A DNA stretch of 64,000 bases from Acidimicrobiales bacterium (GTDB lineage Bacteria; Actinomycetota; Acidimicrobiia; Acidimicrobiales; Aldehydirespiratoraceae): contig OZ220743.1 of NCBI GenBank assembly GCA_965116965.1, forward strand, positions 3,958,628 through 4,022,627. Direction: 5' to 3'. Shown piece by piece: positions 48,060-62,337 of the stretch. The stretch's first letter is position 1; each line of letters opens with the position of its first letter. The translations under genes and the position numbers were made by a program. A model generated the notes under the pieces. The model was not told where the DNA came from, ran no database searches, and saw nothing but the letters and a program-made list of their open reading frames with translations.

Positions 48060-49493
48060 TCAGGTTGGGGGGTGTTCAGTGATGTTGATGGTCTGGATCC
48101 AGCCGGGGATTTGGTCGATGCGGTGCTGGTCGGTGAGGGCCGCGATGACGGTGTGTGTGCCGGGGGGTGGGGTGTGGGGCCAGGGGGTCCAGCCGTCGGT
48201 GATGACGATGATGGCGTCGGGGTTGTTCTCTGCGGCGGTGGTGATGCCTGCGGCCATGTCAGTACCGCCTGCGCCGGTGAGGGTGATGTGGTTGGGGTTG
48301 TGGATGTGTTGGTCGGTGTGGACTTCGGTGTCTACTGACAGGACTCGGATGCTGTCGCCGGGTGTGACGGTTGTGATGATGGCTTTGATCTCGGCGAGGG
48401 CTCGGCCTAGTTCGTGGGGGCTCATGGATCCCGACGTGTCGACGACGACGGTGATCGCTGGGCTGGGGCGGGTGAGCGCGGGCCGCAGGACGGGGTCGTG
48501 GGATTGTTGGCGGCGCGAGGGGCGCTGCCAGGTGTAGTCGGCGGTGCCGGTCTTGTGGTGTGCGGCTGTTCGCACCGCGGTGGCGAGCTGTTGTTGCCAG
48601 TTGATTTGCGGGTGCAGTGTCTGGTTGGCCCAGCGTTGGAGCCCTTCGGGCACCGAGTCGGCGCCGTGGTGTTTACGGTGCTGGGTGACGGCGGTGGCGA
48701 CGGCGTGTTTGAGCAGGGTCTGGTCGAGGTCGGTGAGCGGCGGGGTGTCGTCGTGGAGTTCGTGGGGGAGGTGTTGGCTGTGGCTGCCGGATCCGCAGTC
48801 GACATAGATTTCGATAGTGGTGGTGTTGTCGCGCAGGTGCTTCCAGTAGCGCTCGGCGGGCAGGCATTCGTCGAGGTCGAAGAGATCTGGCAGCAGCGCG
48901 GTGTCGTCGAGGAGGTCGTCGTAGTAGAGGTCGTCGTTGATCTCGCAGTCCGCGGCGACGTTCCACAAGATGGCGGTGGCGGCGTCGACGCCGGCGTTGC
49001 GGGCTCTTTGTGCGTGGTCGCGTAGCACGTGGTTGACGGCATGTATGAGCTCTGCGGCGGCCTGCTCGACGGTGAGGGATTCGAGGTGCTGGGAGCTGGT
49101 GTAGATGCGCCAGCCTTCGTCGATGCCTAGCCGCATCGGTGCGGCGGTCGGGACGATGGGGCATGAGAAGACGGCTTTGGAGTAGTAGGGGCGGTTGGCG
49201 GCGATCCACAGCCTGGCTGCTCGCAGGCGCCGCTGGGCCTCACCGCTGAGCCGCTGGGGCCGCCGCGGCGGCGGTGTTGGGGGTTGGGGCGTGTCTGGAT
49301 CGTGATGGTGCTGTAGGACTTCGCGCTCGGTGCCGGGGTGTGGGCTGTGTGCGCCGCCCGGTTCAGCGCCGGGGTGTGGGCTGTGTGCGCCGCCGGGTCC
49401 GGCGCCGGGGTGTGGGCTGTGTGCGCCGCCGGGTCGAACTTGGCGAGGTGTGCGGTGCCGGCGGTGGCGGTGGTGGGGGTCGTGGCGGCTCAT
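48060..49493 (-). CDS. vWA-domain protein with N-terminal metallopeptidase-like domain (DUF2201-type MoxR partner)
   Basis: The start is taken at the internal ATG at 49493, downstream of the MoxR stop. A MIDAS motif is present (VVVDTSGSMSP). The upstream segment reads ...AAELIHAVNHVLRDH...WNVAADCEINDDL. The N-terminus carries three copies of GAHSPHPGxxPG, encoded by a 36-bp repeat. Confidence 0.75.
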   Translation of the reverse strand: MSRHDPHHRHRRHRTPRQVRPGGAHSPHPGAGPGGAHSPHPGAEPGGAHSPHPGTEREVLQHHHDPDTPQPPTPPPRRPQRLSGEAQRRLRAARLWIAANRPYYSKAVFSCPIVPTAAPMRLGIDEGWRIYTSSQHLESLTVEQAAAELIHAVNHVLRDHAQRARNAGVDAATAILWNVAADCEINDDLYYDDLLDDTALLPDLFDLDECLPAERYWKHLRDNTTTIEIYVDCGSGSHSQHLPHELHDDTPPLTDLDQTLLKHAVATAVTQHRKHHGADSVPEGLQRWANQTLHPQINWQQQLATAVRTAAHHKTGTADYTWQRPSRRQQSHDPVLRPALTRPSPAITVVVDTSGSMSPHELGRALAEIKAIITTVTPGDSIRVLSVDTEVHTDQHIHNPNHITLTGAGGTDMAAGITTAAENNPDAIIVITDGWTPWPHTPPPGTHTVIAALTDQHRIDQIPGWIQTINITEHPPT

Positions 49494-49537
49494 GGCGTCT
49501 GCGCTGCGGGATGTCGGGTCGTGTGGATGTTTGGGGG

Positions 49538-50680
49538 TTATGTGTCGGGGTCGAGGAGGCCGGCGTCGGTGAGGATCTCGGCGAAGATCTCGTGTCCGGG
49601 CGGCAGAGCCACCGCGGCGGGTCTGGTGCGGGCGAGGCGCATCGCAGCCGACGCGGCGACGTCGGGGGCTCCGCAGCCCGCGGCGACGATGCACACCTTG
49701 AACGCGTCGCGCCAGGCTTTGGGATCCGCGGCAGCGGCGACCACGACGGCGTCGAGCGCGGCGAGTTGTTGGTCTGTGCGGGACAGTTCACCGAACGCGG
49801 CGGGATGTGCGAGCAGTTCTTTGGGGTCGGGCAGGTCGAGGTTGCGCAGATAGGCCAGGTACTCAGCCGCGGCGCCTTCTCCCACCAGCGCGCATGCCAG
49901 CAGCAGGCGCACGTCGTCGGACACTTCGGTGGTGTCGGCGATGGCGAGACAGTCCGCGAGGCGTTCCCATGACCTTGGCGAGGGCCAGCCCCGCACCTCG
50001 GTGCCGTTGGAGGGGACTTCGCACAACAGGTTCGGGCGGGCGTCGAGGAACGATGTCTGGAGCCATTTGATGATCTCGACGCTGTAGGGGTCCACCGCGG
50101 ACGGGTCGATGTCGGCGGGTGTGGGGTCGGGCCACCCGGTGAGGTAGCCGGTCTTCCAGTCGTTGACGCTGACGGGCCAGTCGAGGTGCGCGAACCGGTT
50201 CGCCAACGGTGCGGAGAGGTCCCAGGCGGCGCTGTTGTGCGCCGGCGGGTTGGCCGCAGCCGCGAACCGCACCTCGCTGCCAAGGTCGAGGTCGCCGACG
50301 CGGCCGTCCAACACGACACGCATCAGCGCGTTCTGGGTGGCGGGCGCGGCGGTGTTGATCTCATCGAAGAACACCAGCGACACCCCGTCACATCCCGCTG
50401 CGGTGTGGGCCCAGGCGGGAGGCTCGAACACCACACCGGATGCGGTGCGCACCGGCAGCCCCGAGAAGTCAGTCGGGTCATGGATCGACGCGATCACCGA
50501 CACCGTGGGCCATCCGGCTTGTTGTGCGAACGCCTCGATAGTGCGGGTCTTGCCGGTGCCGGGGTCGCCCCACAACAGCACCGGAATGTTCGCGGACAGC
50601 AGGATCTGCATCGCGACGAGAGTGTCGCCCTGGGTGGGGCCCGCCGTAGTGGGCGGACTGGGTTGTGTGGTCGCAGCCAT
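49538..50680 (-). CDS. MoxR-like AAA+ ATPase (AAA_5)
   Basis: The 380-aa ORF has a Walker A motif (VLLWGDPGTGKTR) and a Walker B/sensor region (LVFFDEINTAAPATQNALMRVVLDGRV). Confidence 0.85.
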   Translation of the reverse strand: MAATTQPSPPTTAGPTQGDTLVAMQILLSANIPVLLWGDPGTGKTRTIEAFAQQAGWPTVSVIASIHDPTDFSGLPVRTASGVVFEPPAWAHTAAGCDGVSLVFFDEINTAAPATQNALMRVVLDGRVGDLDLGSEVRFAAAANPPAHNSAAWDLSAPLANRFAHLDWPVSVNDWKTGYLTGWPDPTPADIDPSAVDPYSVEIIKWLQTSFLDARPNLLCEVPSNGTEVRGWPSPRSWERLADCLAIADTTEVSDDVRLLLACALVGEGAAAEYLAYLRNLDLPDPKELLAHPAAFGELSRTDQQLAALDAVVVAAAADPKAWRDAFKVCIVAAGCGAPDVAASAAMRLARTRPAAVALPPGHEIFAEILTDAGLLDPDT

Positions 50681-50742: not shown

Positions 50743-52533
50743 TCATCTGGCGTCGTACGGGGATGCGGCGCCGGCCGCGGTGCGGGCGGGGGCGTCGGCT
50801 GGGGTGTCGGATGGGGCGGGGTCGCGGGTGCGGCGCCGAGAGGCTGCGGTGTGGGTGCGGCGGCGGCCGGTCTCGGCTGCGGAGGCGGCGCGTACCCAGT
50901 AGTCGACGTCGCGGCTGAGGGTGTCCAGCACCGGCTGCGGGGTGCGGTGGTTGTGGCACACGCAGCACCGCACGTCGCGGTCGTCGTCGGTGGCGAGCTT
51001 GCGCAGCAGTCTTGGCGAGGTGTTGGGGTGCAGCGCGACACCGGCGCGCACCGCGTGGTCCTCATGGGCTGCCAGGGTGCCGAGCTCGCTGCGGGGCATG
51101 TTGGTGTTCTGTGCGGCTGAGCTGCTGACGTCGGGGTCCTTGTCGCCGGTGAGGCCCAGCAGCGTCTCGACCGGCGCCGCGGTGTTGGAGGCGAGGCAGT
51201 GACGTACCCACCAGTAGTCGTCTGCGGCCAACGCTTCGAGCACCCCCGGTGGTGTGTGGGGGTGGAATGCGGCTGCGGCGCGCACCTCTCCGCAGTCGTC
51301 TGTGGCCAGCAGCTCCAGCACCTGCGGCGGGGTCTGCTCGTTGTGCGCGACACCCTGTCGCACCTCAATCTTGGGATCAGTGGCCAGCACAGCCAATGCG
51401 TCGGCTCCGATCGGGCGTGCGGCAACCTCGGCGCGCACCCGTTTGGCCCGGTCACCCACACACGCGGCGACAGGCTCCAGCGGAGTGTTGGCGTTGGCGG
51501 CGGCCGCGGCGCGCACCTGCGAGAACCGGTCTGCCAGCAGCGCCTCAAGCACCTGCGGTGACGTAGAGGGGTTGGCTGCGACGTTTCGGCGCACCCACAC
51601 GTCGGGATCCTCTGCCAGGGTCTCCAACAGCCGCGCCGGTGCCGCCTCGGCGTGCGCCACCGCGGAGCGCACCTGAGACGACTCGTCACCGCACAGCCGC
51701 CGCAGCGCCGATGTCGGCACCTTCGGGTGCCACGCGGCCACATTGCGCACCTCCCAGTCACGACTGCGGGCCAGCACACCCAACAGCGCTGGTCTGGCCC
51801 GGTGGTTCTGGGCTGCCCGCAACCCGGGGTGCCCGGCGCCGATTGTGGGCTGCGCCAGACGGCCCAGCATCCGAGCCGGCGTGCTGGGATTCGATGCGAT
51901 CAGGTCTGTGACCTCGACGTCGCCATAGTGGTCCTCGACGATCCATTCGAGCACCGTGCGCGACACCGCTGGGTCAGACGCCGCGGCCATAGCCGACAGC
52001 CGCGGGTCGCGGTGGCCGGCGAGTCGTTCCCAGAACACCGCCGGCATCTCCGACATCCAATGGGTGTCGCGATCGGAGGTCCGCCATCTGTGGTGATGGG
52101 GCACATGCCATGACCACCAGCCCGCCCCCGGCAACAGGCCCCGCACCAGATTCGAATCCAGCCGCGCCGCCAGCGCATGTCCCAGCCAACGCGACAGGCC
52201 CTCGTCGTTCGCCGACACGCACGCGAACGCGGCCGCTCCGCACAGCTCCGCGGGCACATGCACCCGCCACAGCCGCTCAGGCTCCGCAGCCGCGATCACC
52301 GACAGCCGGTCGTTCAACCACCTCACATCAGCCGGCTCCACCAGACCCGCCTCCAGCGTCGCCGCCAACGCCCGCAACCTCCCCAGCGCGCCGCGCACCC
52401 CACACAGCGCCTCCAACAGACGCACCTCGGCCTCATTGGCGACCACCCAGCCGCCGTCGCCGAGCTCCAACACGCCGCGCGCGCCGCCAACCGACACCAC
52501 CCGGCGAAGCCTCCGGCCGCTCACCGCGCACAC
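50743..52533 (-). CDS. Leucine-rich-repeat-variant (LRV)/HEAT-like repeat protein with unknown N-terminal domain of about 230 aa
   Basis: The ORF is 596 aa from a GTG start. It has more than 10 repeats of the type ...ATDPKIEVRQGVAHNEQTPPQVLELLATDDCGEVRAAAAFHPHTPPGVLEALAADD.... The start codon is uncertain. Confidence 0.65.
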   Translation of the reverse strand: MCAVSGRRLRRVVSVGGARGVLELGDGGWVVANEAEVRLLEALCGVRGALGRLRALAATLEAGLVEPADVRWLNDRLSVIAAAEPERLWRVHVPAELCGAAAFACVSANDEGLSRWLGHALAARLDSNLVRGLLPGAGWWSWHVPHHHRWRTSDRDTHWMSEMPAVFWERLAGHRDPRLSAMAAASDPAVSRTVLEWIVEDHYGDVEVTDLIASNPSTPARMLGRLAQPTIGAGHPGLRAAQNHRARPALLGVLARSRDWEVRNVAAWHPKVPTSALRRLCGDESSQVRSAVAHAEAAPARLLETLAEDPDVWVRRNVAANPSTSPQVLEALLADRFSQVRAAAAANANTPLEPVAACVGDRAKRVRAEVAARPIGADALAVLATDPKIEVRQGVAHNEQTPPQVLELLATDDCGEVRAAAAFHPHTPPGVLEALAADDYWWVRHCLASNTAAPVETLLGLTGDKDPDVSSSAAQNTNMPRSELGTLAAHEDHAVRAGVALHPNTSPRLLRKLATDDDRDVRCCVCHNHRTPQPVLDTLSRDVDYWVRAASAAETGRRRTHTAASRRRTRDPAPSDTPADAPARTAAGAASPYDAR

Positions 52534-52656
52534 CCCCGAAACCGGCTGCGGCGCGCGCGTCGCCGGCGGTGCGCCTGTGCGTCGCTCCGGCCCGACACCC
52601 GTCGCGCCGTCCGCCGCGCAGGCCCGACACCCGACCGGGATCTATATTCCCAGAAC

Positions 52657-52672
52657 ATCAGCATATGCTGAT
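52657..52672. promoter_or_regulatory. Perfect 16-bp palindrome ATCAGCATATGCTGAT in a divergent AT-rich intergenic region (candidate operator)
   Basis: The palindrome was read directly at 52657-52672. It lies between the LRV gene start (52533, minus) and the XRE gene (about 52745, plus), within the AT-rich stretch tctatattcccagaacatcagcatatgctgattatacg. Confidence 0.5.
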
Positions 52673-52744
52673 TATACGTGCACCGGGTCCCGGCGCCACC
52701 ATGGAACACCCCCGAACCCCCCGCGGCGGGTACTGTCACCTGTC

Positions 52745-53077
52745 GTGGCGCCCAAGGCCCCCAGCGGCCCGCATGGCAAGTACCGGCGGCTCAAGCTGCG
52801 CAGCCAACCCAAAGACCACCTCATCGCGGGCCACGCCTGGCCCCACGGACGCCTCACCCCGGCCGCGCCCAAAGAGGCCCGCCTGGTCCAAGAGCTCGTC
52901 AAACGCCTCAAAGAAGCCGTCGCGGACCGCAGCCTCGAGGAGATCGAACACCTAAGCGGAGTCAACAAGACCTCCATCAGCCGCCTGCTGAGAGGCGAGT
53001 CATGGGGCACGCTGCCCGTCATCGCCCGACTCGAACACATCCTCGACACCGACCTCTGGGGCAACGAACACCGATAA
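52745..53077 (+). CDS. XRE-family helix-turn-helix regulator
   Basis: The C-terminal 60 aa read ...RSLEEIEHLSGVNKTSISRLLRGESWGTLPVIARLEHILDTDLWG, a Cro/C1-type HTH. The start is provisionally placed at the in-frame GTG at 52745. The long track ORF (from 52436) runs through the promoter and the LRV gene. Confidence 0.6.
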   Translation: MAPKAPSGPHGKYRRLKLRSQPKDHLIAGHAWPHGRLTPAAPKEARLVQELVKRLKEAVADRSLEEIEHLSGVNKTSISRLLRGESWGTLPVIARLEHILDTDLWGNEHR

Positions 53078-53078
53078 G

Positions 53079-53192
53079 CCCCACCATCGGGCAGCATCCC
53101 CACCATCGGGCAGCATCCCCACCATCGGGCAGCATCCCCACCATCGGGCAGCATCCCCACCATCGGGCAGCATCCCCACCATCGGGCAGCAG
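53079..53192. repeat. Tandem array, 19-bp unit CCCCACCATCGGGCAGCAT x6
   Basis: By manual indexing the units start at 53079, 53098, 53117, 53136, 53155 and 53174; the last unit ends in G instead of T. The array begins 2 nt after the XRE stop codon. Confidence 0.9.
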
Positions 53193-53230
53193 CCGCGGGC
53201 GACCAACCGGCAGCGGCCGTCCGTACCTTT

Positions 53231-53398
53231 GGCGTGTATGCGCAACCGCGCGGCGTGCGTTTGCAACGGCCCGGCGGGTATACGCAACCGCTCGGCGGGT
53301 ATACACAACGGCCCGGCGGGTATACGCAACCGGTCGGCGGGTATACACAACCGCTCGGCGGGTATACGCAACCGGTCGGCGGGTATACGCAACCTCTG
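53231..53398. repeat. Tandem array, 21-bp unit GGCGGGTATACGCAACCGnTC x8 (iteron-like, GTATAC core)
   Basis: Units occur every 21 bp from 53231. The first two are degenerate (GGCGTGTATGCGCAACCGCGC and GGCGTGCGTTTGCAACGGCCC). The other six each carry GTATAC. Confidence 0.9.
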
Positions 53399-53592
53399 GG
53401 GGCAGGACGGCAACCGGGGGTGGTATCGCCCCCGAGATCGCTGCGATGATGCTGTCCGCGGTGCGCTCTGAGATTCCCGCCGTGGTGGTGGACGGCGATT
53501 CCACGCGGCATGGCCCTACGTGTGGGCTCTTCGGGGTCGCGACGCAGCCGAGACCGGGTGGCCGACACTGGTTTGGTGTTCGCTGTGGTTGG

Positions 53593-54961
53593 CTATGTGT
53601 GTGTCACGTCGATGTCGGCGCCGAGCTGTGTGAACTTGTCCAGGACGCTGTCGTAGCCGCGTTCGAGGTGGTGCACCCCTGACCGCAGGCTGTCGCCTGT
53701 GGCTGTCACCGCGGCGACGGCGAGCCCGAACCCGGCGCGGATGTCTTCCATGACGACTTCGGTGCCGTGGATCTCAGTCGGTCCGGCCACCAGCGCGGAG
53801 TGGCGGTGCCGGCCGGCGCCGAACCGGCAGCCGTTGGCGCCGAGGCAGCCGTTGAAGAGCTGGACGGTGGCGCCCATGTTGTTGAGCTGCTGGGTGCAGC
53901 CGAGACGGTCCTCGAAGACCGTCTCATACACCGCCGACACGCCGTTGGCTCAGGTGAGCGCGGCGGCCAGAGGCGGCTGCCAGTCGGTGGCGAACCCCGG
54001 GTAGGGGCCCGTGGAGATTCGCGATCGGATCGAGGCCTGTGGGGGCTTCTGCTTCGATGCGGCCGTCGGCGTCGATGGTGACCGTCGCTGCGAGGCGTCG
54101 CATCAGCGCGATCGCAGGCGACACGCGGCTCGGGTCACAGCCAACGACCGCGACCTTGCCTTGGGTCGCGTTCGCGGCCGCGAGGTAGGAGAACGCTTCG
54201 ACGCGGTGGCCTGCGATGTGCTGGCGGCTGGGCTGGAGGCGTTGCACGCCGTCTATGACGTAGCGCCCGTCCCTCGGCGGGTTCGATGATGGCGCCCATG
54301 GGTTGCAGGAACTGGATCAGCTCCTGTATCTCGGGCTCGACCGCGGCGTTGTGCAACACGGTGCGGCCCTCAGCTCTCACCGCGGCCAACAGCACCGTCT
54401 CGGTGGCTCCGACGCTGGGATACGGCAGCGTGACGTCGGCGCCGTGCGGCTCTCCCTGTGCGCTGATGCCGTCGCTGTCCACCGTCACGTGCGCGCCCGT
54501 CGCGGTGAGCGCGTCGCGATGGAAGTCCACGGGCCGCAGCCCGATCCCGTCGCCGCCCGCCACAGGCACCCGGGCCTCCCCGAAGCGGTGCAACAGCACC
54601 GGCAGACACAGAATCGGCATGCAGGCTCACCAGCGTCGATGCGTCCACCACCCCACGGCCCGACCCGACCGCCACGCCCGCGCCGACGGCCGCGAGCACG
54701 GCTGCGGTCACGCGGCACATCAGCGCCGGCGGGCACGTTGTCGAACTCGCAGACGCCGTCGGTCAGGCACGCCGCGATCATCAGCTTCGTGACGGCGTTC
54801 CTAGCGCCCGCAACGACAACAGTCCCCGCCAGCGAGACGCTGGAGCGCGCATACCAGATGCGGTCCCGTGTCGCCGCGAACTCCTCGACCAGCGCCGACT
54901 CCAACCCCCGAGAACCCTCCTCGGAGCCACCCGCAGCGGGGGCGGCGCGACGGCGGGCCAA
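53593..54961 (-). pseudogene. murA-like (UDP-GlcNAc 1-carboxyvinyltransferase / EPSP-synthase fold) gene broken by multiple frameshifts
   Basis: MurA-like segments appear in order but in different frames. They are ...LAGTVVVAGARNAVTKLMIAACLTDGVCEFDNVPAGADV (54961 frame), ...VTAAVLAAVGAGV..VVDASTL, and ...LLHRFGEARVPVAGGDGIGLRPVDFH...SVGATETVLLAAVRAEGRTVLHNAAVEPEIQELIQFL (54620 frame). These are followed by ...HRVEAFSYLAAANATQGKVAVVG (54247 frame) and ...EDRLGCTQQLNNMGATV...HHLERGYDSVLDKFTQLGADI (53940 frame). Confidence 0.7.
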
Positions 54962-55297: not shown

Positions 55298-55645
55298 CTA
55301 TCGGGTGTCGGTGCGGCTGGGCAGCGTTGGTAGATCCTGCCCGAACACGACACTGAAGTAGGCCCAGCCGAACAGGACCGAGCGCATCTCGTCGATCGCT
55401 TCCTGTTCGCTGTAGCCGCACGCGATGGCTCCCCGCGCCGGTGCACACAGCGCGACGAAGCCCTTCGGGTCGTCGATCTGTTCCACCGCGGTGTGCGGGT
55501 GCGCACGGTCGACCCATTCGTGGATGAGACCTTCCTGGTCTCGAGGCAGCCCGGTGGTCGTGCCGTAGCGGACGCGGCCCACCCACCGCCGAAGCCTGAG
55601 CGCCACCGATGCTCGCAGCTGTCGCCACGAGTGCCTCAAACTCAC
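55298..55645 (-). CDS. HicB-like antitoxin-fold protein (start uncertain)
   Basis: The segment ...HTAVEQIDDPKGFVALCAPARGAIACGYSEQEAIDEMRSVLFGWAYFSVVFGQDLPTLP matches the HicB/UPF0150 pattern (...G.va.vP.l.Gc.a.G.t.eEA...). No HicA-like partner was seen. Confidence 0.45.
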   Translation of the reverse strand: MSLRHSWRQLRASVALRLRRWVGRVRYGTTTGLPRDQEGLIHEWVDRAHPHTAVEQIDDPKGFVALCAPARGAIACGYSEQEAIDEMRSVLFGWAYFSVVFGQDLPTLPSRTDTR

Positions 55646-55688: not shown

Positions 55689-55958
55689 CTACGGCCCCCG
55701 CGGATCGGGTATCGGGTCGCCGCGCCCTTGGAGCATCCCGATCGCTTCTCCGACGATCACGCGGATCCCTCGCTCAGCGGCTTGCCTGTCGGCGTCCAGC
55801 CAACCCACCTGCGGGCCGAACTCCTCGCAGACGCCCACCCACTCCCGATCGGGTCCAAACCACAAGACCCCTGCAGGCGCACCGGTCATCACCAGCCACA
55901 ACGACATCCGATACCGAACCAGGACATCGACTGCCTGCACCCCATGACAGCCCCCCAA
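55689..55958 (-). CDS. Second possible HicB-like small protein
   Basis: The segment ...LWFGPDREWVGVCEEFGPQVGWLDADRQAAERGIRVIVGEAIGMLQGRGDPIPDP is loosely HicB-like. An internal ATG (MSLWLV...) is a plausible start. Confidence 0.35.
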   Translation of the reverse strand: MGGCHGVQAVDVLVRYRMSLWLVMTGAPAGVLWFGPDREWVGVCEEFGPQVGWLDADRQAAERGIRVIVGEAIGMLQGRGDPIPDPRGP

Positions 55959-56674
55959 TGTATGCGGTCAGCGCAGAGCCTCGAACCACTCCCACGAAAC
56001 TGAGGGGCCCCGACACCATCGTGGGGACGACCTCGGCGGCCGCCGCCCGCTCTGAGTCTCAGCGAAGACGCTGACCTCCGCGTTTCCCAATCCGCGCCGC
56101 CCCCTTACCCGGGCCTGCGGCACGAGCAGCGGGCCGCTCCCCTATACGAACAGAGCACCGGTTCGGATCGCTCCACTGGGCTCCCGAAACTCGGCTCCGA
56201 TTATGCGCTGGCCGGGTTCGCTCGGTTCGGGAGCGGATCCCTCCCATGGCTCGGATCAGCTTCCGACCAAACCTCGGGGACAGACCCCCAAGTCGCCTCG
56301 ATCCGGTCAGTCTGCTCGGGGTCGGCGCTATCTGAGATCGGGTGGTTCGCAGTGGCTCGGGTCGGGCCCGACGAGCAAGAAACATCAAGCCCCATAGGGC
56401 TCGACGCGTCCAGGCCGGCCAGCTTGCACCCGGATCGGATCAGCTGAACTCGGTGCCTCGGACGGTTCACACCACGGTTCGGATCTGTGTCAGATCCGCT
56501 CGCGTCATGCAGGTGGCGTGCGCGGCTCAGGCCCGGACCCTGACCGGACCCTCGGTCCGGCGCAGGCCTTCGACCAACTCGGTCGCCCGCGTAAGAGCCC
56601 GGTCGAGTCGGCCCGGACGGCTCCCAGACCTCCCTCGACTCGATAACCCCGCGCTCAGGCTCGACGCGTGCTCC

Positions 56675-57110
56675 CCGGTCGGGTCGATCTCTCGCGTGGT
56701 CCCCCGGTGGGCTTCGCGTCGGCCCGGTCGGGTCGATCTCTCGCGTGGTCCCCCGGTGGGCTTCGCGTCGGCCCGGTCGGGTCGATCTCTCGCGTGGTCC
56801 CCCGGTGGGCTTCGCGTCGGCCCGGTCGGGTCGATCTCTCGCGTGGTCCCCCGGTGGGCTTCGCGTCGGCCCGGTCGGGTCGATCTCTCGCGTGGTCCCC
56901 CGGTGGGCTTCGCGTCGGCCCGGTCGGGTCGATCTCTCGCGTGGTCCCCCGGTGGGCTTCGCGTCGGCCCGGTCGGGTCGATCTCTCGCGTGGTCCCCCG
57001 GTGGGCTTCGCGTCGGCCCGGTCGGGTCGATCTCTCGCGTGGTCCCCCGGTGGGCTTCGCGTCGGCCCGGTCGGGTCAGTGTCCCGCGTGGTCCCCCGGT
57101 GGCCTGGCCC
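56675..57110. repeat. Tandem array, 49-bp unit x8 identical plus 1 degenerate copy
   Basis: The unit is CCGGTCGGGTCGATCTCTCGCGTGGTCCCCCGGTGGGCTTCGCGTCGGC. Units start at 56675 and recur every 49 bp to 57066, and a diverged ninth copy follows. The period is not a multiple of 3. Confidence 0.95.
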
Positions 57111-57339
57111 ATGTCGGCTCGATGCTGATGGCCCGACACAACGGCCCGGTCGGCTCGGCTCGAAGGGCTCCGTTCCGGCTCCCGTCGGCTTCCGCTCCGC
57201 GTCGGCTCTCGCTCCGCTTGCTCCCCACCGACTAGCGCCCGCCGGGAGTCCCTTTCGTGTCGGCTTGGGGCTGTCCGAATTGCGTGGTGCCTCATTGTTC
57301 CGGCTCCCGGACTCGTTCCGGCTTCCGGCTTCGCGTGCC

Positions 57340-58470
57340 TATCGGCCCGGCTCCGGGTCCTGTCGGCTCCCGGCCCGCTCCCGGTCCGGCTCCGGGCTCC
57401 GGGTCCTGTCGGCTTCCGGCCCGCTCCCGGTCCGGCTCCCGGCTCCGGCTCCTGTCGGCTCCCGGCCCGCTCCCGGTCCGGCTCTCGGCTCCGGGTCCTG
57501 TCGGCTCCCGGCCCGCTCCCGGTCCGGCTCCCGGCTCCGGCTCCTGTCGGCTCCCGGCCCGCTCCCGGTCCGGCTCCCGGCTCCGGCTCCTGTCGGCTCC
57601 CGGCCCGCTCCCGGTCCGGCTCCCGGCTCCGGCTCCTGTCGGCTCCCGGCCCGCTCCCGGTCCGGCTCTCGGCTCCGGCTCCTGTCGGCTCCCGGCCCGC
57701 TCCCGGTCCGGCTCCCGGCTCCGGCTCCTGTCGGCTCCCGGCCCGCTCCCGGTCCGGCTCTCGGCTCCGGGTTCTGTCGGCTTCCGGCCCGCTCCCGGTC
57801 CGGCTCCCGGCTCCGGCTCCGGGCTCCGGGCTCTGTCGGCTCCCGGCCCGCTCCCGGTCCGGCTCCCGGCTCCGGCTCCTGTCGGCTCCCGGCCCGCTCC
57901 CGGTCCGGCTCCCGGCTCCGGGTCCTGTCGGCTTCCGGCCCGCTCCCGGTCCGGCTCTCGGCTCCGGCTCCGGGCTCCGGGCTCTGTCGGCTCCCGGCCC
58001 GCTCCCGGTCCGGCTCCCGGCTCCGGCTCCTGTCGGCTCCCGGCCCGCTCCCGGTCCGGCTCCCGGCTCCGGGTCCTGTCGGCTCCCGGCCCGGCTCCCG
58101 GTCCGGCTCTCGGCTCCGGCTCCTGTCGGCTCCCGGCCCGCTCCCGGTCCGGCTCCCGGCTCCGGGTCCTGTCGGCTCCCGGCCCGCTCCCGGTCCGGCT
58201 CTCGGCTCCGGGTCCTGTCGGCTCCCGGCCCGCTCCCGGTCCGGCTCTCGGCTCCGGGTCCTGTCGGCTCCCGGCCCGCTCCCGGTCCGGCTCCGGGCTC
58301 CGGGCTCCGGGCTCCGGCTCTCGGCTCCGGGTCCTGTCGGCTCCCGGCCCGCTCCCGGTCCGGCTCACGACGGTCCGGCTCTCGGCTCCGGGTCCTGTCG
58401 GCTCCCGGCCCGTCACCCCGGCCCGCTCCCCGGTCCGGCTCTCGGCTCCCGGCCCGGCTCACGACGGTCC
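57340..58470. repeat. Tandem array, about 46-bp unit, roughly two dozen imperfect copies
   Basis: An example unit is CTGTCGGCTCCCGGCCCGCTCCCGGTCCGGCTCCCGGCTCCGGCTC. The period of 46 bp was measured at 57361 to 57407 and at 57541 to 57587. Units differ by point variants and small CCGGGCT insertions. All frames are open on both strands. Confidence 0.9.
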
Positions 58471-58665
58471 GGCTGACCACCACCACGGTCCGGCATCGTC
58501 AACAGTACAGAAACAAACAACCCGACAACCCGACCACACAACCCGAACGAACGGACAGCACACAAAACCGAACGGAACCCAAAACCGCCGCGGCGAGGAC
58601 CGTACATGCGGATCGTCGAACCCGGGAACCGGACCCGATCCGGGACAGAAAACCTGTACCGGATC

Positions 58666-58935
58666 GGGGCGCTCCGCTGGGAGGGGGCGCTCCGCTGGGA
58701 GGGGGCGCTCCGCTGGGAGGGGGCGCTCCGCTGGGAGGGGGCGCTCCGCTGGGAGGGGGCGCTCCGCTGGGAGGGGGCGCTCCGCTGGGAGGGGGCGCTC
58801 CGCTGGGAGGGGGCGCTCCGCTGGGAGGGGGCGCTCCGCTGGGAGGGGGCGCTCCGCTGGGAGGGGGCGCTCCGCTGGGAGGGGGCGCTCCGCTGGGAGG
58901 GGGCGCTCCGCTGGGAGGGGGCGCTCCGCTGGGAG
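58666..58935. repeat. Tandem array, 18-bp unit GGGGCGCTCCGCTGGGAG x15 identical
   Basis: The array spans exactly 270 bp, which is 15 units by manual indexing. The plus-frame translation reads GALRWE fifteen times in track ORF 58606..59814. Confidence 0.95.
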
Positions 58936-59517
58936 GGGGCTTGCTGTGTGTGTCCCGGCCGGGATTGCTTGTCTTGGGCCAGGTTGCCGGGGATGGCTGC
59001 GGACCTGGAGCAGGGTCGACAGCGAGCCCGCCGGCCTGTGGGGCTGCGGGCAGGCTGCTTGTTGCTGGCTGCTTGCTGCTGGGGGGCGTCGCCGGTCGTT
59101 GCGTGGGGCTGTTGGTCGCGTCCCGGCCGTAGGGGCGTGTTGGGGCCAGGTTGCCGGGGACGGCTGCGGCCTGAGCAGGGTTCAGCGAGAGCCCGCGGCC
59201 GGTGTCGGCTGCGGGTGGCTCACTGGGGGCCTCGCGGCTCTGGAGGGGCCTTGGCCGCGACGGCTGGGCCAGGTTGCCGAGGACGGCTGCGGACCCGGAG
59301 CAGGGCGTGCCGCAGGGCCGGGCAGGGCTGCTCGGCATCTAGCAGGGTGCTGCGCGCTGTCCGCGGGCTGCTCTGTGCTGGCCGCAGGCTGCTGGAGGCT
59401 GGCGAAGCGGCCGGGCTCGTCGGCGCTGTTGCGCTGGTCGGGAGGGCGGGCCACCGAGCGCCTCGGGCTGCGGATCGGTGTGGTTCTCCGGTCCGGAGGC
59501 CTTGTGCGGGGGTGGGG

Positions 59518-60027
59518 TCACGGTTTGGCGCGCGCCCGTTTTGGTCTTTTATTCTGCGCAGCTTCGATTTCGGTGAGGTAGAACTCGAGGAGGGCGCTGA
59601 CGCTGGAGGAGACGGACCAGGCTCGTCTTTGGGCGATTCTTTGGAGTCTTCTGTGCTCGGTGTCGGTGAGTCCGACGACTATGACTTGGCGGCCTGGGAG
59701 GTCGTTGCGGGGGGTGTGGGCGATTTCGTCGGCGTAGCGTTCTGCGGCCATGACGATGAGGTCGGCTCGCTTCATGCCGCTTGCTTTGATGCAGGTGACG
59801 AGGTCGGGGTGTAGGCAGAAGGCTCGCTTCTTGCGTTTGGTGTTGCGTGGGTTCGGGGCGGTGGTCGGGGCGGTGTGTTGGCCGGAGAGGATCTCGCTGT
59901 GTCCGACGACGCGGCCTCGGCCTCCGCGGCCGCGTTCGCGGTGTTGGGGTGTGGCTGGGGTGTCTGCGGGTGGTGGGGGTGGGGGCGCGTTGGGGTCGGC
60001 GGGGTCAGGTGCGGGTGGTTTGGCCAT
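59518..60027 (-). CDS. Partition-type small DNA-binding protein (ribbon-helix-helix-like C-terminal half), downstream of parA
   Basis: The start is taken at the internal ATG at 60027, 12 bp after the parA-like stop. The N-terminus is Pro-rich and basic. The C-terminal half reads ...KRAFCLHPDLVTCIKASGMKRADLIVMAAERYADEI...TDTEHRRLQRIAQRRAWSVSSSVSALLEFYL. The call rests mainly on the gene's position and its beta-strand/helix pattern. Confidence 0.5.
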   Translation of the reverse strand: MAKPPAPDPADPNAPPPPPPADTPATPQHRERGRGGRGRVVGHSEILSGQHTAPTTAPNPRNTKRKKRAFCLHPDLVTCIKASGMKRADLIVMAAERYADEIAHTPRNDLPGRQVIVVGLTDTEHRRLQRIAQRRAWSVSSSVSALLEFYLTEIEAAQNKRPKRARAKP

Positions 60028-60038
60028 GGAGCCGGGGC

Positions 60039-60930
60039 TCAGCTGTCGCTGGCGATGCGTTCGATGTCGGCGATGCGGTCGTTGACCTCTTTGGCGAGCT
60101 CGCGGAACTCCGCTACAACGTCGGGCAGGTTGCGGGCGACGCTGATGCGTTCTGCGATCATGTCGCCTACGGATTTGGTGTCGGCGCGCTCGAGGTACTC
60201 GTGGATGAGTTTGCCTTGTTCGAGGGCGCCTCTTGTGGGCGTTGGGGCGTTGCGGATGATGGTGTGGAAGGGTCCGGCGGCTCCGCCGACGATGCGGCGG
60301 ACTTGTTCGTAGGCCTGGTAGCGCGAGCGGAGTGCTGCGGCTCCGATCTTGTGGAGGGGACGACGCCGAGCAGCACGATTTGGGAGTGTGAGGCTTCGAG
60401 GTCGTCTCTGTGGACTCTGAGGCCTCGAGGTCGTGTGGGTGATCGGTTGCGGCGACGATGAGGTAGGCGCCGACCTGTAGGGCGACGGTGGGGATCATGG
60501 AGGCTCCGCCGACAGTGGGAGGTCTATGACGATGCGGTCCTAGCGGCCGATGACCGCCTCGAAGGCGTCGGCGAACTCTTGTGGGGCCTAGGGCTCGGTT
60601 ACGAGGGCTTGGGCGAAACGGGTGATCTCGCGTCCGGCGACTACGACATCGAGTCGTTCTTTGGCTGCGACGACCTTGAGTGGGTCGCCTCAGGTGACTG
60701 CTTCTACGAAGTGTCGGCCGTGTCCGTGGCAGACGGGGCTGAAGCCCATTGCGAGGGTCGCGTTGGCTTGTGCGTCGGCGTCTACGAGCAGGACACGCAG
60801 GCCGTGTTCTGCGGCCCAGAGCCCTGAAAGTGCTGTCGCGAGGGCGGCCTTGCCTACGCCGCCTTTTCCGACCCCGACAACGAGGCTCTTGGGTATCCGC
60901 TCATCAGTGGTCCTCCATGGGGATCATGAC
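60039..60930 (-). pseudogene. parA-like Walker ATPase gene with lost start, in-frame stops and frameshifts
   Basis: The minus-strand reading is ...IPKSLVVGVGKGGVGKAALATALSGLWAAEHGLRVLLVDADAQANATLAMGF...VEAVT(TGA)GDPLKVV...VTEP(TAG)APQEFADAFEAVIGR(TAG)DRIVIDLP.... The frame then shifts to ...MIPTVALQVGAYLIVAATD... and shifts again to ...FHTIIRNAPTPTRGALEQGKLIHEYLE...EVNDRIADIERIASDS(stop at 60041-60039). There is no in-frame start upstream of the P-loop. Confidence 0.7.
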
Positions 60931-61114
60931 ACAGAATTATTGCCGTCTTATGCCGTTCCTATAACCCTCTTATTGCTTTTGATATAGGTTGGCGCGAAGT
61001 TGGCTATAAGAATGTCCTAGTTCGGCAATAGGACTCTTGGCTATAGCACATCTGTGGTTAATGTCCGTGTTCGGCGGGGAGGGGTCGCGCCGGGGGTCTG
61101 GGGCTGCCGCGGGG

Positions 61115-61242
61115 CGCGACATTGTCGCGACACAAGCGCGCGATAGCTGTGACATTTCCGCGACATCGCTGCGGTGCTCGGGGGTGTGACAACAGCGCGA
61201 CACAAGCGCGCGATAACTGTGACATTTCCGCGACATCGCTGC
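61115..61242. repeat. 15-bp palindrome (CGCGACATTGTCGCG) plus two copies of a 47-bp direct repeat, upstream of the parA remnant
   Basis: The palindrome is at 61115-61129. The repeat CGCGACACAAGCGCGCGATA(G/A)CTGTGACATTTCCGCGACATCGCTGC occurs at 61126-61172 and 61196-61242, with one mismatch and a 70-bp offset. Confidence 0.75.
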
Positions 61243-61534
61243 CATGGGCGCCAAAGTGGTGTCTGGGGCGTCGCCGGGCGGCGTCGGCGCGGCTGTCGCG
61301 GGCCGGGCGCGAGCCGGTTCGCAGTCAAGGTTTCGGCGGGACTCTCGATGGGGCCGCACTGGGGGGTAGCCGGCTGGCGGCGCCGGCGCGGCGGCGGAGG
61401 GTCTGGGGGGCGGCGGGTCGGCGCGGCGCGGCTCTCGACGCCGGCTGCAGGGCGCTGCCGGGCGGGGTCTTTGGGGCTTCGACCGCCTCGGGGAGCGGCG
61501 CCGATGCCCGGCGGAGCGCGGGGCGGGGTCCGCG

Positions 61535-61960
61535 GGCTCGACACGGGCCGCCGTCGGCGGCTCGACGCGGCTGGGCGCCTCGACGCGGCCCGGTGTGGGC
61601 GGGCTGCGGGCTCGACGCGGCCGGGAGCTCGACGCGGCCGGGGAGCTCGACGCGGCCCGGTGTGGGCAGTCCGGCGGCGGGTTGGGGGCTCGACGCGACC
61701 CGGTGTGGGCGGCTCGACGCGGCCGGGAGCTCGACGCGGCCGGGAGCTCGACGCGACCCGGTGCTCGACGCGGCCGGGGAGCTCGACGCGGCCCGGTGTG
61801 GGCAGTCCGGCGGCGGGTTGGGGGCTCGACGCGACCCGGTGCTCGACGCGGCCGGGAGCTCGACGCGGCCCGGTGTGGGCGGTCCGGCGGCGGGTTGGGG
61901 GCTCGACGCGGCCCGGTGTGGGCGGGCTGCGGGCTCGACACTGCCCGGGCTCGACACGGC
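61535..61960. repeat. Dense array of about 18 (G)CTCGACGCGGCC-type boxes with a higher-order period of about 136 bp
   Basis: CTCGAC recurs at irregular 17-43 bp spacing from 61537 to 61950. The block CAGTCCGGCGGCGGGTTGGGGGCTCGACGCGACCCGGTG occurs at about 61667 and about 61803. Confidence 0.7.
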
Positions 61961-62337
61961 CGAGCGTCGGCGCCTCGGCGCCGGGTGTGGGCGCCTCAAG
62001 GGGTTTGACGCGGCTCGGGCTTGACGTGGCTGCGGGGCGGCGCGGCCGGTAGGGCTCGACGCAGCTGCGGGGCGGCGGATCGGCAACAAAGGCTCGTCCT
62101 CGCGGCGGGCGCGGTCTCGGCGCGGCGCGGGCTGGGCGCGGCCCGAGCGGGCGGATCAATCAGGAGCCCCGACGCGGGCCGAACGGGCCGGGGGCGGCTG
62201 CGGGTCCGGCCCGGCGAGGGGCTCCGCAACAGCCCCGTGCATCGCCGCTACGGCGCGCCGCTGCGAGGGCGCTGAGAGCGGCTCCGGCGACCCGCCGCGA
62301 GCGGCCCGCGGGCTGCAGCCAGCCAGCGGCGCCTACT

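What the first reader, a model, noticed from the sequence alone, without database searches (positions are those of the whole stretch)
52640..53400. Replication-origin-like arrangement: palindromic operator, XRE gene, then two different iteron-like arrays
An AT-rich divergent region holds a perfect 16-bp palindrome (ATCAGCATATGCTGAT, 52657-52672). The XRE-type HTH gene ends at 53077. Two nucleotides later, six copies of a 19-bp unit begin. After a 38-bp spacer come eight copies of a 21-bp unit (two helical turns), each centred on GTATAC. Direct repeats of 19-22 bp next to a small DNA-binding protein gene are the hallmark of iteron-type plasmid origins and incompatibility loci. No Rep, primase or relaxase gene is recognisable nearby, so either the initiator is lost or the repeats are binding sites for the XRE protein or a trans-acting factor.
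Basis: partly seen in the sequence, partly recalled or inferred. Interest (0 to 1): 0.6.

Follow-up and report, generated by a model that had tools for sequence, protein, structure and literature searches.

The report
Repressor operator plus minisatellites, not origin
The repeats are real, but this is not a replication origin: it is the regulator end of a conserved four-gene chromosomal cassette, followed by tandem repeats that change from one relative to the next, one of which keeps a conserved core that might still be a protein-binding site.

Summary
A second assembly from another sample reproduces them at 99.98% identity with the same copy numbers.

The context is a chromosome of an uncultured Acidimicrobiales-like bacterium. 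The locus sits in a defence island next to tRNA-SeC. The window holds no Rep, Par, relaxase or integrase gene, no DnaA box and no AT-rich unwinding element.

The XRE gene (110 aa) and the divergent LRV/HEAT, MoxR-AAA and VWA/DUF2201 operon form a cassette found in every relative examined. The palindrome keeps its position, shows a symmetric compensatory change, and abuts a conserved minus-strand -10 box. It is most likely the XRE operator.

Long-range homology between relatives stops within 5-40 nt of the XRE stop codon.
- The 19-bp array occurs only in this strain. One relative has two degenerate copies of the unit.
- The 21-bp array is older. Five lineages carry an array with the core GCGKGTATACRYRAC in the same place and orientation, but with periods of 13, 21 and 26-28 bp.
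- One clade lost it and instead amplified a 29-bp piece of the neighbouring murA 3' end.

The origin reading is rejected. The arrays are best read as persistent minisatellites. A binding-site role for the GTATAC core is not excluded.

The parts
48060..49787 (-). VWA / DUF2201 gene (putative metallopeptidase domain plus VWA-like domain), last gene of the divergent operon. The true start is probably near 49.4 kb, because relatives are 452-464 aa.
   Evidence: Pfam DUF2201_N 4e-22 and DUF2201 6e-21. Same gene in L002-L010, L035, L159 and L160.
49538..50680 (-). MoxR-like AAA+ ATPase gene (380 aa)
   Evidence: Pfam AAA and AAA_5 about 1e-6. A conserved neighbour in all relatives.
50743..52533 (-). 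LRV/HEAT-repeat protein gene (596 aa), first gene of the operon divergent from XRE
   Evidence: Pfam LRV 7e-37, HEAT and LRV_2. Conserved in relatives.
52643..52648 (+). TATATT, a possible plus-strand -10 box left of the palindrome
   Evidence: Read from the sequence. Kept as TAnnnT in 7 of 9 aligned loci. Inference only.
52657..52672 (.). Perfect 16-bp palindrome ATCAGCATATGCTGAT, the probable XRE operator
   Evidence: The same alignment columns hold TCWGCATATGCWGA in relatives. There is a symmetric A4/T13 to T4/A13 change.
52671..52676 (-). TATAAT on the minus strand, the probable -10 box of the LRV-AAA-VWA operon. The predicted transcription start falls inside the palindrome.
   Evidence: Sequence. 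A minus-strand TAnnnT occupies the same columns in all 9 aligned loci. The consensus scan found no full -35/-10 pair, so this is inference.
52731..52736 (+). TACTGT within the invariant TACTGTC block, 8 nt before the GTG start. Probable -10 box of a leaderless XRE mRNA.
   Evidence: Invariant columns in alignment A2. Function inferred.
52745..53077 (+). XRE-family HTH gene, 110 aa
   Evidence: HTH_3 at 18.2 bits, below the 23-bit cut-off. 58 homologue clusters at 48-100% identity, many with precomputed PF01381. The HTH segment is almost invariant.
53079..53192 (+). 19-bp array, 6 copies of CCCCACCATCGGGCAGCAT. A strain-specific minisatellite.
   Evidence: Present only in the window and in L157. 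L011 has two degenerate copies at the same place, and the alignment runs to 53114.
53193..53230 (.). 38-bp unique spacer between the two arrays
53231..53398 (+). 21-bp array, 7.8 copies, consensus GGCGGGTATACGCAACCGCTC. The local form of an older satellite with core GCGKGTATACRYRAC.
   Evidence: Cognate arrays in L010, L011, L034 and L159.
53593..54903 (-). murA-like (EPSP_synthase family) pseudogene, convergent with XRE and broken into at least three frames
   Evidence: Three ORF fragments match successive parts of PF00275. Aligns to an intact gene in L010. An intact 442-aa copy is convergent with XRE in L158.

Best explanation
The interval is the right-hand end of a conserved chromosomal cassette. 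An XRE-family repressor gene is transcribed divergently from an LRV/HEAT, MoxR-AAA and VWA/DUF2201 operon. The cassette lies in a defence island next to tRNA-SeC in an uncultured Acidimicrobiales-like genome.

The palindrome is the repressor's operator. It sits directly against the minus-strand -10 box of the operon, so a bound XRE dimer would block initiation there. XRE itself is probably made from a leaderless promoter (TACTGT) just upstream of its GTG start.

The two arrays lie in the gap between the 3' ends of XRE and a decayed, convergent murA-like gene. They are minisatellites created and resized by replication slippage or unequal recombination.
- The 19-bp array is a very recent blow-up of sequence native to the XRE 3' flank.
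- The 21-bp array is the local version of an older satellite inherited since before the split of two XRE clades. It is repeatedly re-homogenised with new spacers and periods.

Neither array is a replication origin.

Shown: the anatomy, the conservation pattern, and the absence of origin features. Inferred: repressor binding, promoter assignments, the slippage mechanism, and the absence of a function for the arrays.
For: Context
- tRNA-SeC lies at 9969-10064, followed by a GC drop.
- Island genes include STAND NTPases, an E1-like protein, a mad3/LmuB-like ATPase, UvrD and type I R-M. No Rep, Par, relaxase or integrase gene was found.
- The exact XRE protein is on a 4.12-Mb contig.
- A native UbiD gene is closest to Acidimicrobiaceae and Acidimicrobiales MAG proteins.

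Cassette
- The same four genes occur in L002-L010, L035, L159 and L160.

Operator
- Alignment A2 shows the palindrome columns conserved.
- There is a symmetric change: ATCAGCATATGCTGAT in this clade against TTCTGCATATGCAGAT in L007 and L160.
- A minus-strand TAnnnT box abuts the palindrome in all 9 loci.
- TACTGTC is invariant before the start codon.
- The HTH segment of the protein is almost invariant.

Arrays
- Long-range homology with relatives that are 81-83% identical in the module stops 5-40 nt after the stop codon.
- The 19-bp array is found only in this strain. L011 has two degenerate copies of its unit.
- The P0005 clade lacks both arrays. It has a 29-bp array built from the murA stop-codon region, with about 2 to 10 copies among contigs whose XRE protein is identical.
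- The L034 array is degenerate, with only 1 of 6 units keeping GTATAC.
- L035, L036, L007-9 and L160 have no array.
- All nine arrays scoring 80 or more in the window lie beyond 49 kb. 24.7% of L010 is in arrays.
- The flank is an insertion hotspot for IS3, IS21 and IS110 elements and group II introns.
- Periods of 19 and 26-28 bp rule out coding.
- There is no Rfam hit, and the RNA folding z-score is +1.2.
Against: - The 21-bp satellite is not simply junk-like. Five lineages keep an array in the same place and orientation. 13 of the 16 positions of gGCGKGTATACRCAAC agree in all five per-lineage consensus units, against 0 of the 6 spacer positions.
- On the XRE tree the array is present throughout clade A and in L159 of clade B, and was lost once. 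This persistence, in a bacterium where neutral DNA tends to be deleted, could reflect selection.
- The two assemblies of this strain have identical copy numbers, so hypervariability of these two arrays themselves is not demonstrated.
- Operator binding and promoter positions are inferred. The consensus promoter scan found nothing.
Confidence: 0.6

Rival explanations
1. The 21-bp array, and its 13-, 21- and 26-28-bp cognates in relatives, is a maintained cis-element of the cassette. It would be a platform of sites (core GCGKGTATACRYRAC) for a DNA-binding protein. Possible roles are titration or decoy, a roadblock against convergent transcription into the repressor gene, or a centromere-like site analogous to sopC downstream of sopB. 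The 19-bp array would still be a neutral expansion.
For: - The core is conserved and the spacer is not, across five lineages with different periods.
- Position and orientation after the XRE stop codon are the same. The spacer between stop codon and array looks homologous by eye in L010 and L159.
- The motif is found nowhere else in about 200 kb of related sequence.
- GTATAC occurs 6 times in the array and once in the other 64 kb.
- On the tree the array is inherited rather than re-invented.
Against: - The array is dispensable. It is absent from the P0005 clade and from four outgroup lineages that keep an intact cassette and operator.
- It is decaying in L034.
- The core does not resemble the operator half-site TCWGCAT, and the XRE recognition helix is invariant, so XRE is not an obvious binder.
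- Helical phasing is not conserved (21 against 26-28 against 13 bp).
- No ParA or ParB gene is present.
- The conservation count is biased, because units were anchored on the core.
- Units in the 21-bp lineages are about 76% identical overall, close to the 81-83% identity of the flanking genes.
Confidence: 0.25
2. One reading: an iteron-type replication origin or incompatibility determinant whose initiator has been lost or acts in trans.
For: Direct repeats of 19 and 21 bp lie next to a small DNA-binding protein gene, and 21 bp equals two helical turns.
Against: - No Rep, primase, relaxase, Par or integrase gene is in the 64 kb.
- There is no DnaA box.
- GC is 63-73% across and beside the arrays, so there is no unwinding element.
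- The setting is chromosomal.
- Plasmids and phages give no DNA match, and viral contigs hold no XRE relative. Plasmids carry only 31-38% identical XRE homologues in unrelated contexts.
- The 19-bp array is strain-specific and perfect.
- The period differs between relatives.
Confidence: 0.03
3. The arrays act at the RNA or protein level. Either they form a repeat-containing 3' UTR or small RNA (a sponge or type III antitoxin-like array), or the 21-bp units encode a GGYTQPL heptad peptide (ORF 53234-53449).
For: - The arrays start 2 nt after the XRE stop codon with no recognisable terminator between, so they may be co-transcribed.
- A 71-aa ORF reads GGYTQPL repeats.
Against: - There is no Rfam family above noise.
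- The region folds no better than shuffles, z = +1.2.
- Periods of 19 and 26-28 bp are not multiples of three, so a peptide cannot be conserved.
- No toxin-like ORF follows on the same strand.
Confidence: 0.04

Closest known systems
Iteron-type plasmid origins and incompatibility loci (R6K, RK2 oriV, pPS10, P1 incC/incA); comparison from general knowledge
   Same: Tandem direct repeats of about 19-22 bp, one array with a two-turn period, next to a gene for a small DNA-binding protein.
   Different: No Rep gene, no DnaA box and no AT-rich unwinding region. The setting is a chromosomal defence island. The units are contiguous and nearly perfect, rather than spaced and individually diverged. The 19-bp set is strain-specific. 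The period of the other set varies (13, 21, 26-28 bp) among relatives.
Bacterial minisatellites / VNTR loci such as mycobacterial MIRU-VNTRs; comparison from general knowledge
   Same: Intergenic head-to-tail arrays of units tens of bp long. Copy number, and even unit, change between close relatives. Many arrays occur in the same genome region. Degenerate edge units flank homogenised inner units.
   Different: MIRUs are one dispersed family at many loci, whereas each array here has its own unit. The 21-bp satellite keeps a conserved core over about 15-20% nucleotide divergence. Copy-number polymorphism within this strain was not seen in the two assemblies available.
XRE/Cro-CI-type repressors with palindromic operators, including controller (C) proteins of restriction-modification systems and their C-boxes; comparison from general knowledge
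   Same: A small HTH_3 protein. A palindromic site in the promoter region that it shares with the genes it presumably controls. A defence-island setting.
   Different: The protein has a conserved extension of about 45 aa N-terminal to the HTH. The controlled genes are an LRV/HEAT-MoxR-VWA operon of unknown function, with no PADLOC match except weak AAA-domain hits. Binding is untested.
F-plasmid sopC centromere (twelve 43-bp repeats directly downstream of sopB); comparison from general knowledge
   Same: A tandem array, each unit with a short palindromic core, placed immediately after the gene of an HTH DNA-binding protein.
   Different: No ParA or ParB-type genes. Chromosomal setting. The array is dispensable in most relatives. 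The unit length is different.
MoxR AAA+ / VWA partner pairs (RavA-ViaA, NorQ-NorD; PMC3893208, PMC9976466)
   Same: Adjacent MoxR-class AAA+ and VWA-domain genes, as in the operon divergent from XRE.
   Different: Here the pair is joined by an LRV/HEAT protein and an XRE regulator and lies in a defence island. The client or function is unknown.

Membership tests
Iteron-type plasmid replication origin | Gene for a Rep initiator that binds the iterons, adjacent or nearby | tested here: not met
   Pfam scans of 30 ORFs across the window found no Rep, primase or helicase-loader family.
Iteron-type plasmid replication origin | AT-rich DNA-unwinding element, and usually DnaA boxes, beside the iterons | tested here: not met
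   GC is 0.63-0.73 in all 60-bp windows from 53080 to 53560. The only AT-rich patch is the promoter at 52630-52690. TTVTCCACA has 0 matches in the window.
Iteron-type plasmid replication origin | Located on a plasmid or other autonomous replicon | tested here: not met
   The exact XRE protein is on a 4.12-Mb contig. tRNA-SeC and housekeeping genes are in the window. There is no plasmid DNA match.
Iteron-type plasmid replication origin | Iteron sequence and spacing conserved among related replicons | tested here: inconclusive
   The 19-bp units are absent from all relatives except the same strain. The 21-bp core is conserved in 5 lineages, but the period varies and the array is absent from 8 or more other loci.
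Iteron-type plasmid replication origin | Supports autonomous replication or exerts incompatibility | not testable with these tools
   Needs cloning into a non-replicating vector.
Bacterial minisatellite / VNTR | Head-to-tail non-coding tandem copies | tested here: met
   TRF found 19 bp x5.9 at 100% and 21 bp x7.8 at 83%. The arrays lie between convergent 3' ends. Periods of 19 and 26-28 bp exclude coding.
Bacterial minisatellite / VNTR | Unit, copy number or presence differs between close relatives | tested here: met
   Window has 21 bp x8, L010 26-28 bp x11, L011 21 bp x3.5, L034 21 bp x6 degenerate, and L159 alternating 13-bp and about 21-bp spacings. The P0005 clade has a 29-bp murA-derived array with about 2-10 copies among contigs with identical XRE.
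Bacterial minisatellite / VNTR | Copy-number polymorphism within the strain or population | tested here: inconclusive
   Only one other assembly of this strain is available (L157). It has identical copy numbers.
Bacterial minisatellite / VNTR | Other unrelated arrays in the same genome | tested here: met
   Seven further arrays with TRF score of 80 or more lie between 49 and 63 kb.
XRE-family repressor with palindromic operator | HTH_3 (PF01381) DNA-binding domain | tested here: met
   HTH_3 scores E = 0.0026 and 18.2 bits, below the 23-bit cut-off. Many homologues at 60-85% identity carry precomputed PF01381 or PF13560. The HTH segment is almost invariant. The match is weak but consistent.
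XRE-family repressor with palindromic operator | Palindromic site in its own or the divergent promoter, conserved with the gene | tested here: met
   Alignment A2 holds 9 loci. The core GCATAT is invariant, there is a symmetric compensatory change, and a -10 box is adjacent. The same holds in L160.
XRE-family repressor with palindromic operator | Protein binds the site and represses transcription | not testable with these tools
   Needs EMSA or footprinting and a reporter assay.
Plasmid partition centromere array (sopC / parC type) | Adjacent ParA-type ATPase and centromere-binding protein genes | tested here: not met
   No ParA or ParB family was found next to the arrays. The only CbiA/MipZ hit is the P-loop of a 1540-aa STAND NTPase 40 kb away.

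The most novel reading that the evidence does not exclude
The GCGKGTATACRYRAC array would be a selected cis-element. It would mark the 3' boundary of the XRE / LRV-MoxR-VWA cassette as a multi-site platform for an unidentified DNA-binding protein, or for XRE in a second binding mode. Possible roles are titration or buffering of a regulator, or a roadblock that shields the repressor gene from convergent transcription coming out of a hypervariable, IS-ridden flank. Slippage would tune the number of sites.
Probability: 0.2. Interest if true: 0.55.

Novelty: new member of a known kind. Interest (0 to 1): 0.3.

Why it matters
This result removes a false origin call. Direct repeats next to a small HTH gene are not enough to infer an iteron origin in a repeat-prone, high-GC genome.

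It also yields something useful. It defines a conserved, uncharacterised cassette (XRE, LRV/HEAT, MoxR-AAA, VWA/DUF2201) with a well-supported operator, in defence islands of Acidimicrobiales from wastewater-type metagenomes.

It documents a junction where tandem arrays are born, homogenised and replaced on short evolutionary timescales. If the conserved GTATAC core proved to be a binding site, it would be a rare bacterial case of a regulator-linked site array whose copy number evolves by slippage. That is of moderate interest rather than field-changing.

Tried and rejected
- Scan of genome contigs for pairs of the GTATAC core. It gave 18 scattered, unrelated single hits and none from this lineage. 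The source genome is evidently not in that collection, so genome-wide dispersal could not be tested.
- Scan of metagenome contigs with a looser pattern. No high-GC XRE-linked locus was among them. This scan was wasted.
- Scan of viral contigs for the core and for XRE relatives. Nothing relevant.
- BLAST of the region against plasmids, and of XRE protein against plasmids and phages. Only 31-38% identical XRE homologues on large actinobacterial plasmids, with unrelated neighbours in the two records inspected.
- Search for an attR copy of the tRNA-SeC 3' end, to delimit the island. None in the window.
- PADLOC on cassette proteins. No system match.
- Rfam at gathering and E-value thresholds, and RNA folding of the arrays. 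No RNA signal.
- Coding reading of the 21-bp array (GGYTQPL repeats). Rejected because the cognate units are 26-28 and 13 bp.
- Transposon-end reading. No inverted copy of the motif exists at the other end of the cassette.
- The 23-bp x3 arrays in L011, L007 and L160 at first looked related to the 19-bp unit. They flank IstA/IstB and are IS21 terminal repeats. The shared CCACCAnCGGGCAG string remains unexplained.
- XRE binding to the arrays by motif similarity. The 19-bp unit ends in CAGCAT, six nt of the operator half-site. The 21-bp core on the minus strand resembles the operon's -10 region (CACGTATA). Both are post-hoc leads, not evidence.
- My initial guess of Candidatus Microthrix was not borne out. 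The source names given to the closest proteins are Acidimicrobiaceae, Acidimicrobiales and Acidimicrobiia.
Full report
**Observation**

- The perfect palindrome ATCAGCATATGCTGAT lies at 52657-52672.
- The HTH gene ends with TAA at 53075-53077.
- Six copies of CCCCACCATCGGGCAGCAT run from 53079 to 53192. Five are perfect and the last has one mismatch. Shuffles expect 0.04 matches.
- After a 38-bp spacer, 7.8 copies of a 21-bp unit (consensus GGCGGGTATACGCAACCGCTC, 83% matches) run from 53231 to 53398.

Two corrections apply.
- Only six units carry GTATAC. The first two are degenerate.
- A 16-bp perfect palindrome is not itself surprising in 64 kb: 3 were found against 2.3 expected.

The arrays are not assembly artefacts. 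Contig L157, from a different sample, is 99.98% identical over window 42678-63076, and every array has the same copy number.

**The gene**

The long ORF (213 aa from TTG) is not the gene. A database protein identical to the 110-aa product starting at GTG 52745 exists on a 4.12-Mb contig, and homologues are 110-112 aa. Pfam HTH_3 scores 18.2 bits, below the 23-bit cut-off. Many homologues carry precomputed PF01381, and the HTH segment LSGVNKTSISRLLRGESWGTLPVIARLE is almost invariant across 14 sequences down to 49% identity. It is an XRE-family protein with a conserved N-terminal extension of about 45 aa.

**Context**

- Positions 1-10 kb have GC3 near 0.9 and about 70% GC.
- tRNA-SeC lies at 9969-10064. 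Immediately after it GC falls to about 60-65%.
- From 10 to 47 kb the ORFs are two STAND NTPases, a PLD-like protein, a ThiF/E1-like protein, an SMC-type ATPase matching PADLOC mad3 and LmuB, a UvrD helicase, and YgjP plus HsdR/S/M.
- Next come a 535-aa unknown, a DUF2201_N/VWA protein, a MoxR-like AAA+ ATPase and a 596-aa LRV/HEAT protein, all on the minus strand. XRE follows on the plus strand.
- No Rep, primase, relaxase, ParA/ParB or integrase family was found in 30 ORFs scanned.
- A native UbiD gene is 86% identical to a protein named 'Acidimicrobiaceae bacterium'.

This is a chromosomal defence island in an uncultured Acidimicrobiales-like bacterium, not a plasmid.

**Relatives**

I fetched 19 loci that encode XRE homologues.
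- Identical or near-identical: L157.
- 88-89% identity: L010, L011, L034.
- 85%: L001-L006, plus L158, which carries a truncated XRE gene.
- 79-81%: L035, L036, L159.
- 75%: L160.
- 72%: L007-L009.

The unit XRE, then divergent LRV, AAA and VWA/DUF2201, recurs wherever insertion elements have not broken it. The genes to the left of the VWA gene and to the right of XRE differ from locus to locus.

**The palindrome as operator**

In an alignment of nine intergenic regions (A2) the palindrome occupies the same columns.
- The window, L010 and L034 have ATCAGCATATGCTGAT.
- L007 and L160 have TTCTGCATATGCAGAT. Positions 4 and 13 changed together (A/T to T/A), so symmetry is kept.
- L011, L035 and the 85% clade carry one or two mismatches in one arm.

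Directly to the right, the minus strand reads TATAAT in the window (complement of 52671-52676). A TAnnnT hexamer fills the same columns in all nine loci. A transcript starting 6-8 nt downstream would begin inside the palindrome and run into the LRV gene.

An invariant TACTGTC block ends 7 nt before the XRE start codon, and its TACTGT hexamer ends 8 nt before the GTG. This fits a -10 box for a leaderless mRNA, a common arrangement in Actinobacteria (established knowledge, inferred here). The consensus promoter scan found no full -35/-10 pair, so the promoter assignments are inferences.

**The arrays are not an origin**

- There is no DnaA box in the window.
- Every 60-bp window from 53080 to 53560 has 63-73% GC.
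- No plasmid or phage DNA matches, and no viral contig encodes an XRE relative. Plasmid-borne XRE homologues are only 31-38% identical, with unrelated neighbours in the two records inspected.

**What the arrays are**

BLAST alignments between the window and L010, L011 and L034 run at 81-83% identity through the cassette. They stop 5-37 nt after the XRE stop codon. L034 and L010 are 91% identical up to the stop codon and unalignable beyond it.

In the ancestral arrangement, XRE converges on a murA-like gene.
- That gene is intact at 442 aa in L158.
- It is truncated in L001 and L006.
- It is split into at least three reading frames in the window, at 53593 to about 54900.

So the arrays occupy a gap between two 3' ends.

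The 19-bp array:
- It exists only in the window and L157.
- L011 has two degenerate copies at the same place (GCCCCACCGGCTGCGC and CCCCACCACCGGCAGCGG).
- Other clades keep a single CCCCACCA-type string.
- It is therefore a recent expansion of native flank sequence.

The 85% clade:
- It has neither array.
- Instead a 29-bp unit containing the murA stop codon and last codons is amplified about 2 to 10 times. The contigs concerned have an identical XRE protein.
- The window holds that unit once, at about 53580-53610.
- Different pieces of one intergenic gap have thus been amplified in different lineages, which points to slippage rather than a dedicated set of sites.

The surroundings agree:
- All nine arrays scoring 80 or more in the window lie beyond 49 kb.
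- 24.7% of L010 is tandem repeat.
- The flank has taken up IS3, IS21 and IS110 elements and group II introns in various relatives.

**The 21-bp array is older and less clearly neutral**

Arrays with the same core follow XRE, in the same orientation, in four other lineages.
- L010: 26-28 bp, 11 copies, nearly perfect.
- L011: 21 bp, 3.5 copies.
- L034: 21 bp, 6 copies, degenerate.
- L159: about 10 motifs at alternating 13-bp and about 21-bp spacings.

Across the five per-lineage consensus units, 13 of the 16 positions of gGCGKGTATACRCAAC agree in all five. None of the six following positions does. The motif occurs nowhere else in about 200 kb of related sequence.

On a neighbour-joining tree of the XRE gene, the array is present in all four sampled members of clade A and in L159 of clade B. 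It is absent from the 85% group and from the outgroups. The simplest history is one gain and one loss.

By eye, L010 and L159 also share the spacer of about 65 nt between the stop codon and the array. This suggests that the stretch up to and including the array was inherited vertically.

This pattern, a conserved core with free spacer and period, is what a binding-site array would show.

Several points weigh against a function.
- The count is biased, because units were anchored on the core.
- Units of the three 21-bp lineages are about 76% identical overall, close to the 81-83% identity of the flanking genes.
- L034 keeps GTATAC in only one of six units.
- Eight or more loci with an intact cassette and operator have no array.
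- The core does not resemble the operator half-site TCWGCAT, and the recognition helix does not vary.
- Phasing is not conserved.

I therefore rate a sequence-specific function at roughly one in four and treat persistence by continual re-homogenisation as the default.

**Other readings**

- A peptide reading (GGYTQPL repeats) fails, because cognate periods are not multiples of three.
- There is no Rfam match above noise, and the region folds no better than shuffles, z = +1.2.
- No inverted copy of the motif lies at the other end of the cassette, so it is not a transposon terminus.
- The 23-bp triplets seen in L007, L011 and L160 flank IstA/IstB genes and are IS21 terminal repeats.

**Comparison with known systems**

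The locus works like a Cro/CI-type or controller-protein-type repressor with its operator, placed next to ordinary bacterial minisatellites. It fails four of the five testable defining features of an iteron origin and is inconclusive on the fifth. It lacks the partner genes of a partition centromere. MoxR AAA+ and VWA pairs are a widespread two-protein module (PMC3893208, PMC9976466). The version here, with an LRV/HEAT protein and an XRE regulator in a defence island, matches no PADLOC system, with only weak AAA-domain hits for the ATPase.

**Verdict**

- The origin interpretation is rejected.
- The operator interpretation is supported.
- The arrays are best explained as minisatellites at a hypervariable cassette boundary, with a residual chance that the GTATAC core is a functional site.

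Interest is modest at 0.3. Novelty is a new member of known kinds.

**Caveats**

- Most comparison contigs appear to be long-read metagenome assemblies, judging from their record names. The 26, 27 and 28 bp variation in L010 lies in a G-run and may partly be sequencing error.
- The genome-wide distribution of the units could not be tested, because the source genome is not in the searchable genome collection.

Noticed in passing
window 9969-10064 and 10-47 kb: tRNA-SeC is followed by a sharp GC drop (0.72 to 0.60). Then comes a defence island of more than 40 kb: two giant STAND NTPases, a PLD-like protein, a ThiF/E1-like protein, a mad3/LmuB-like SMC ATPase, UvrD, and YgjP plus type I HsdR/S/M. 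No attR copy of the tRNA end lies in the window.
   Followed up: partly
window 55700-62700; L010:7490-10787; L159:8460-9850: A gene-poor stretch of about 7-10 kb packed with large minisatellites. These include 49 bp x8.8, 46 bp x22, a perfect 18 bp x15.3, and 17 bp x18. The 57-58 kb part is C/T-rich on the plus strand, with AT skew of -0.8. CGGCTC-rich fields of the same flavour lie 1-4 kb downstream of XRE in two other lineages. Long ORFs called through them are probably spurious, because the periods are 46 and 49 bp. Function unknown.
   Followed up: partly
window 49332-49435 and the same position in L001-L006, L011, L035, L159: A 36-bp repeat (12 codons) at the junction of the AAA and VWA genes is present in nearly every relative examined, with 2.0-4.6 copies. 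It probably encodes a variable-length N-terminal segment of the VWA protein.
   Followed up: no
window 53593-54903 (-): A murA-like (EPSP_synthase family) gene is broken into at least three frames. The same breaks occur in the independent assembly L157. It is intact in L158 and L010, and truncated by insertions in L001 and L006.
   Followed up: partly
window 53079-53192 vs L160:8460-8535, L007:9398-9461, L011:6959-7031: The 19-bp unit CCCCACCATCGGGCAG shares 13 of 14 positions (CCACCAnCGGGCAG) with the 23-bp terminal repeats of IS21-family elements that insert next to XRE in relatives. This could be chance or a remnant IstA-binding site. Unexplained.
   Followed up: no
window 53092-53097 (and each 19-bp unit) vs 52659-52664: Each 19-bp unit ends in CAGCAT, six nt of the operator half-site ATCAGCAT. 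The minus strand of the 21-bp core (CACGTATAC in L034) resembles the operon's -10 region CACGTATAAT. Both are post-hoc similarities only.
   Followed up: no
L159:4890-4935: In this relative the operator is interrupted. The sequence reads TTCTG-TATTCCCAGAA-GCATAG, apparently an 11-bp duplication of the left flank inserted into the palindrome. The cassette and the GTATAC array are still intact.
   Followed up: no
window 55298-55645 (-): A small ORF with a weak UPF0150/HicB-like match (E = 0.004), sitting alone between the murA remnant and the minisatellite field.
   Followed up: no
L007-L009: 1-1555 (-): In the 72% clade the cassette has a fifth gene, a 778-aa protein with a DNA_processg_A (DprA-like) match and a faint LRV match. 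This hints that the cassette acts on DNA.
   Followed up: no
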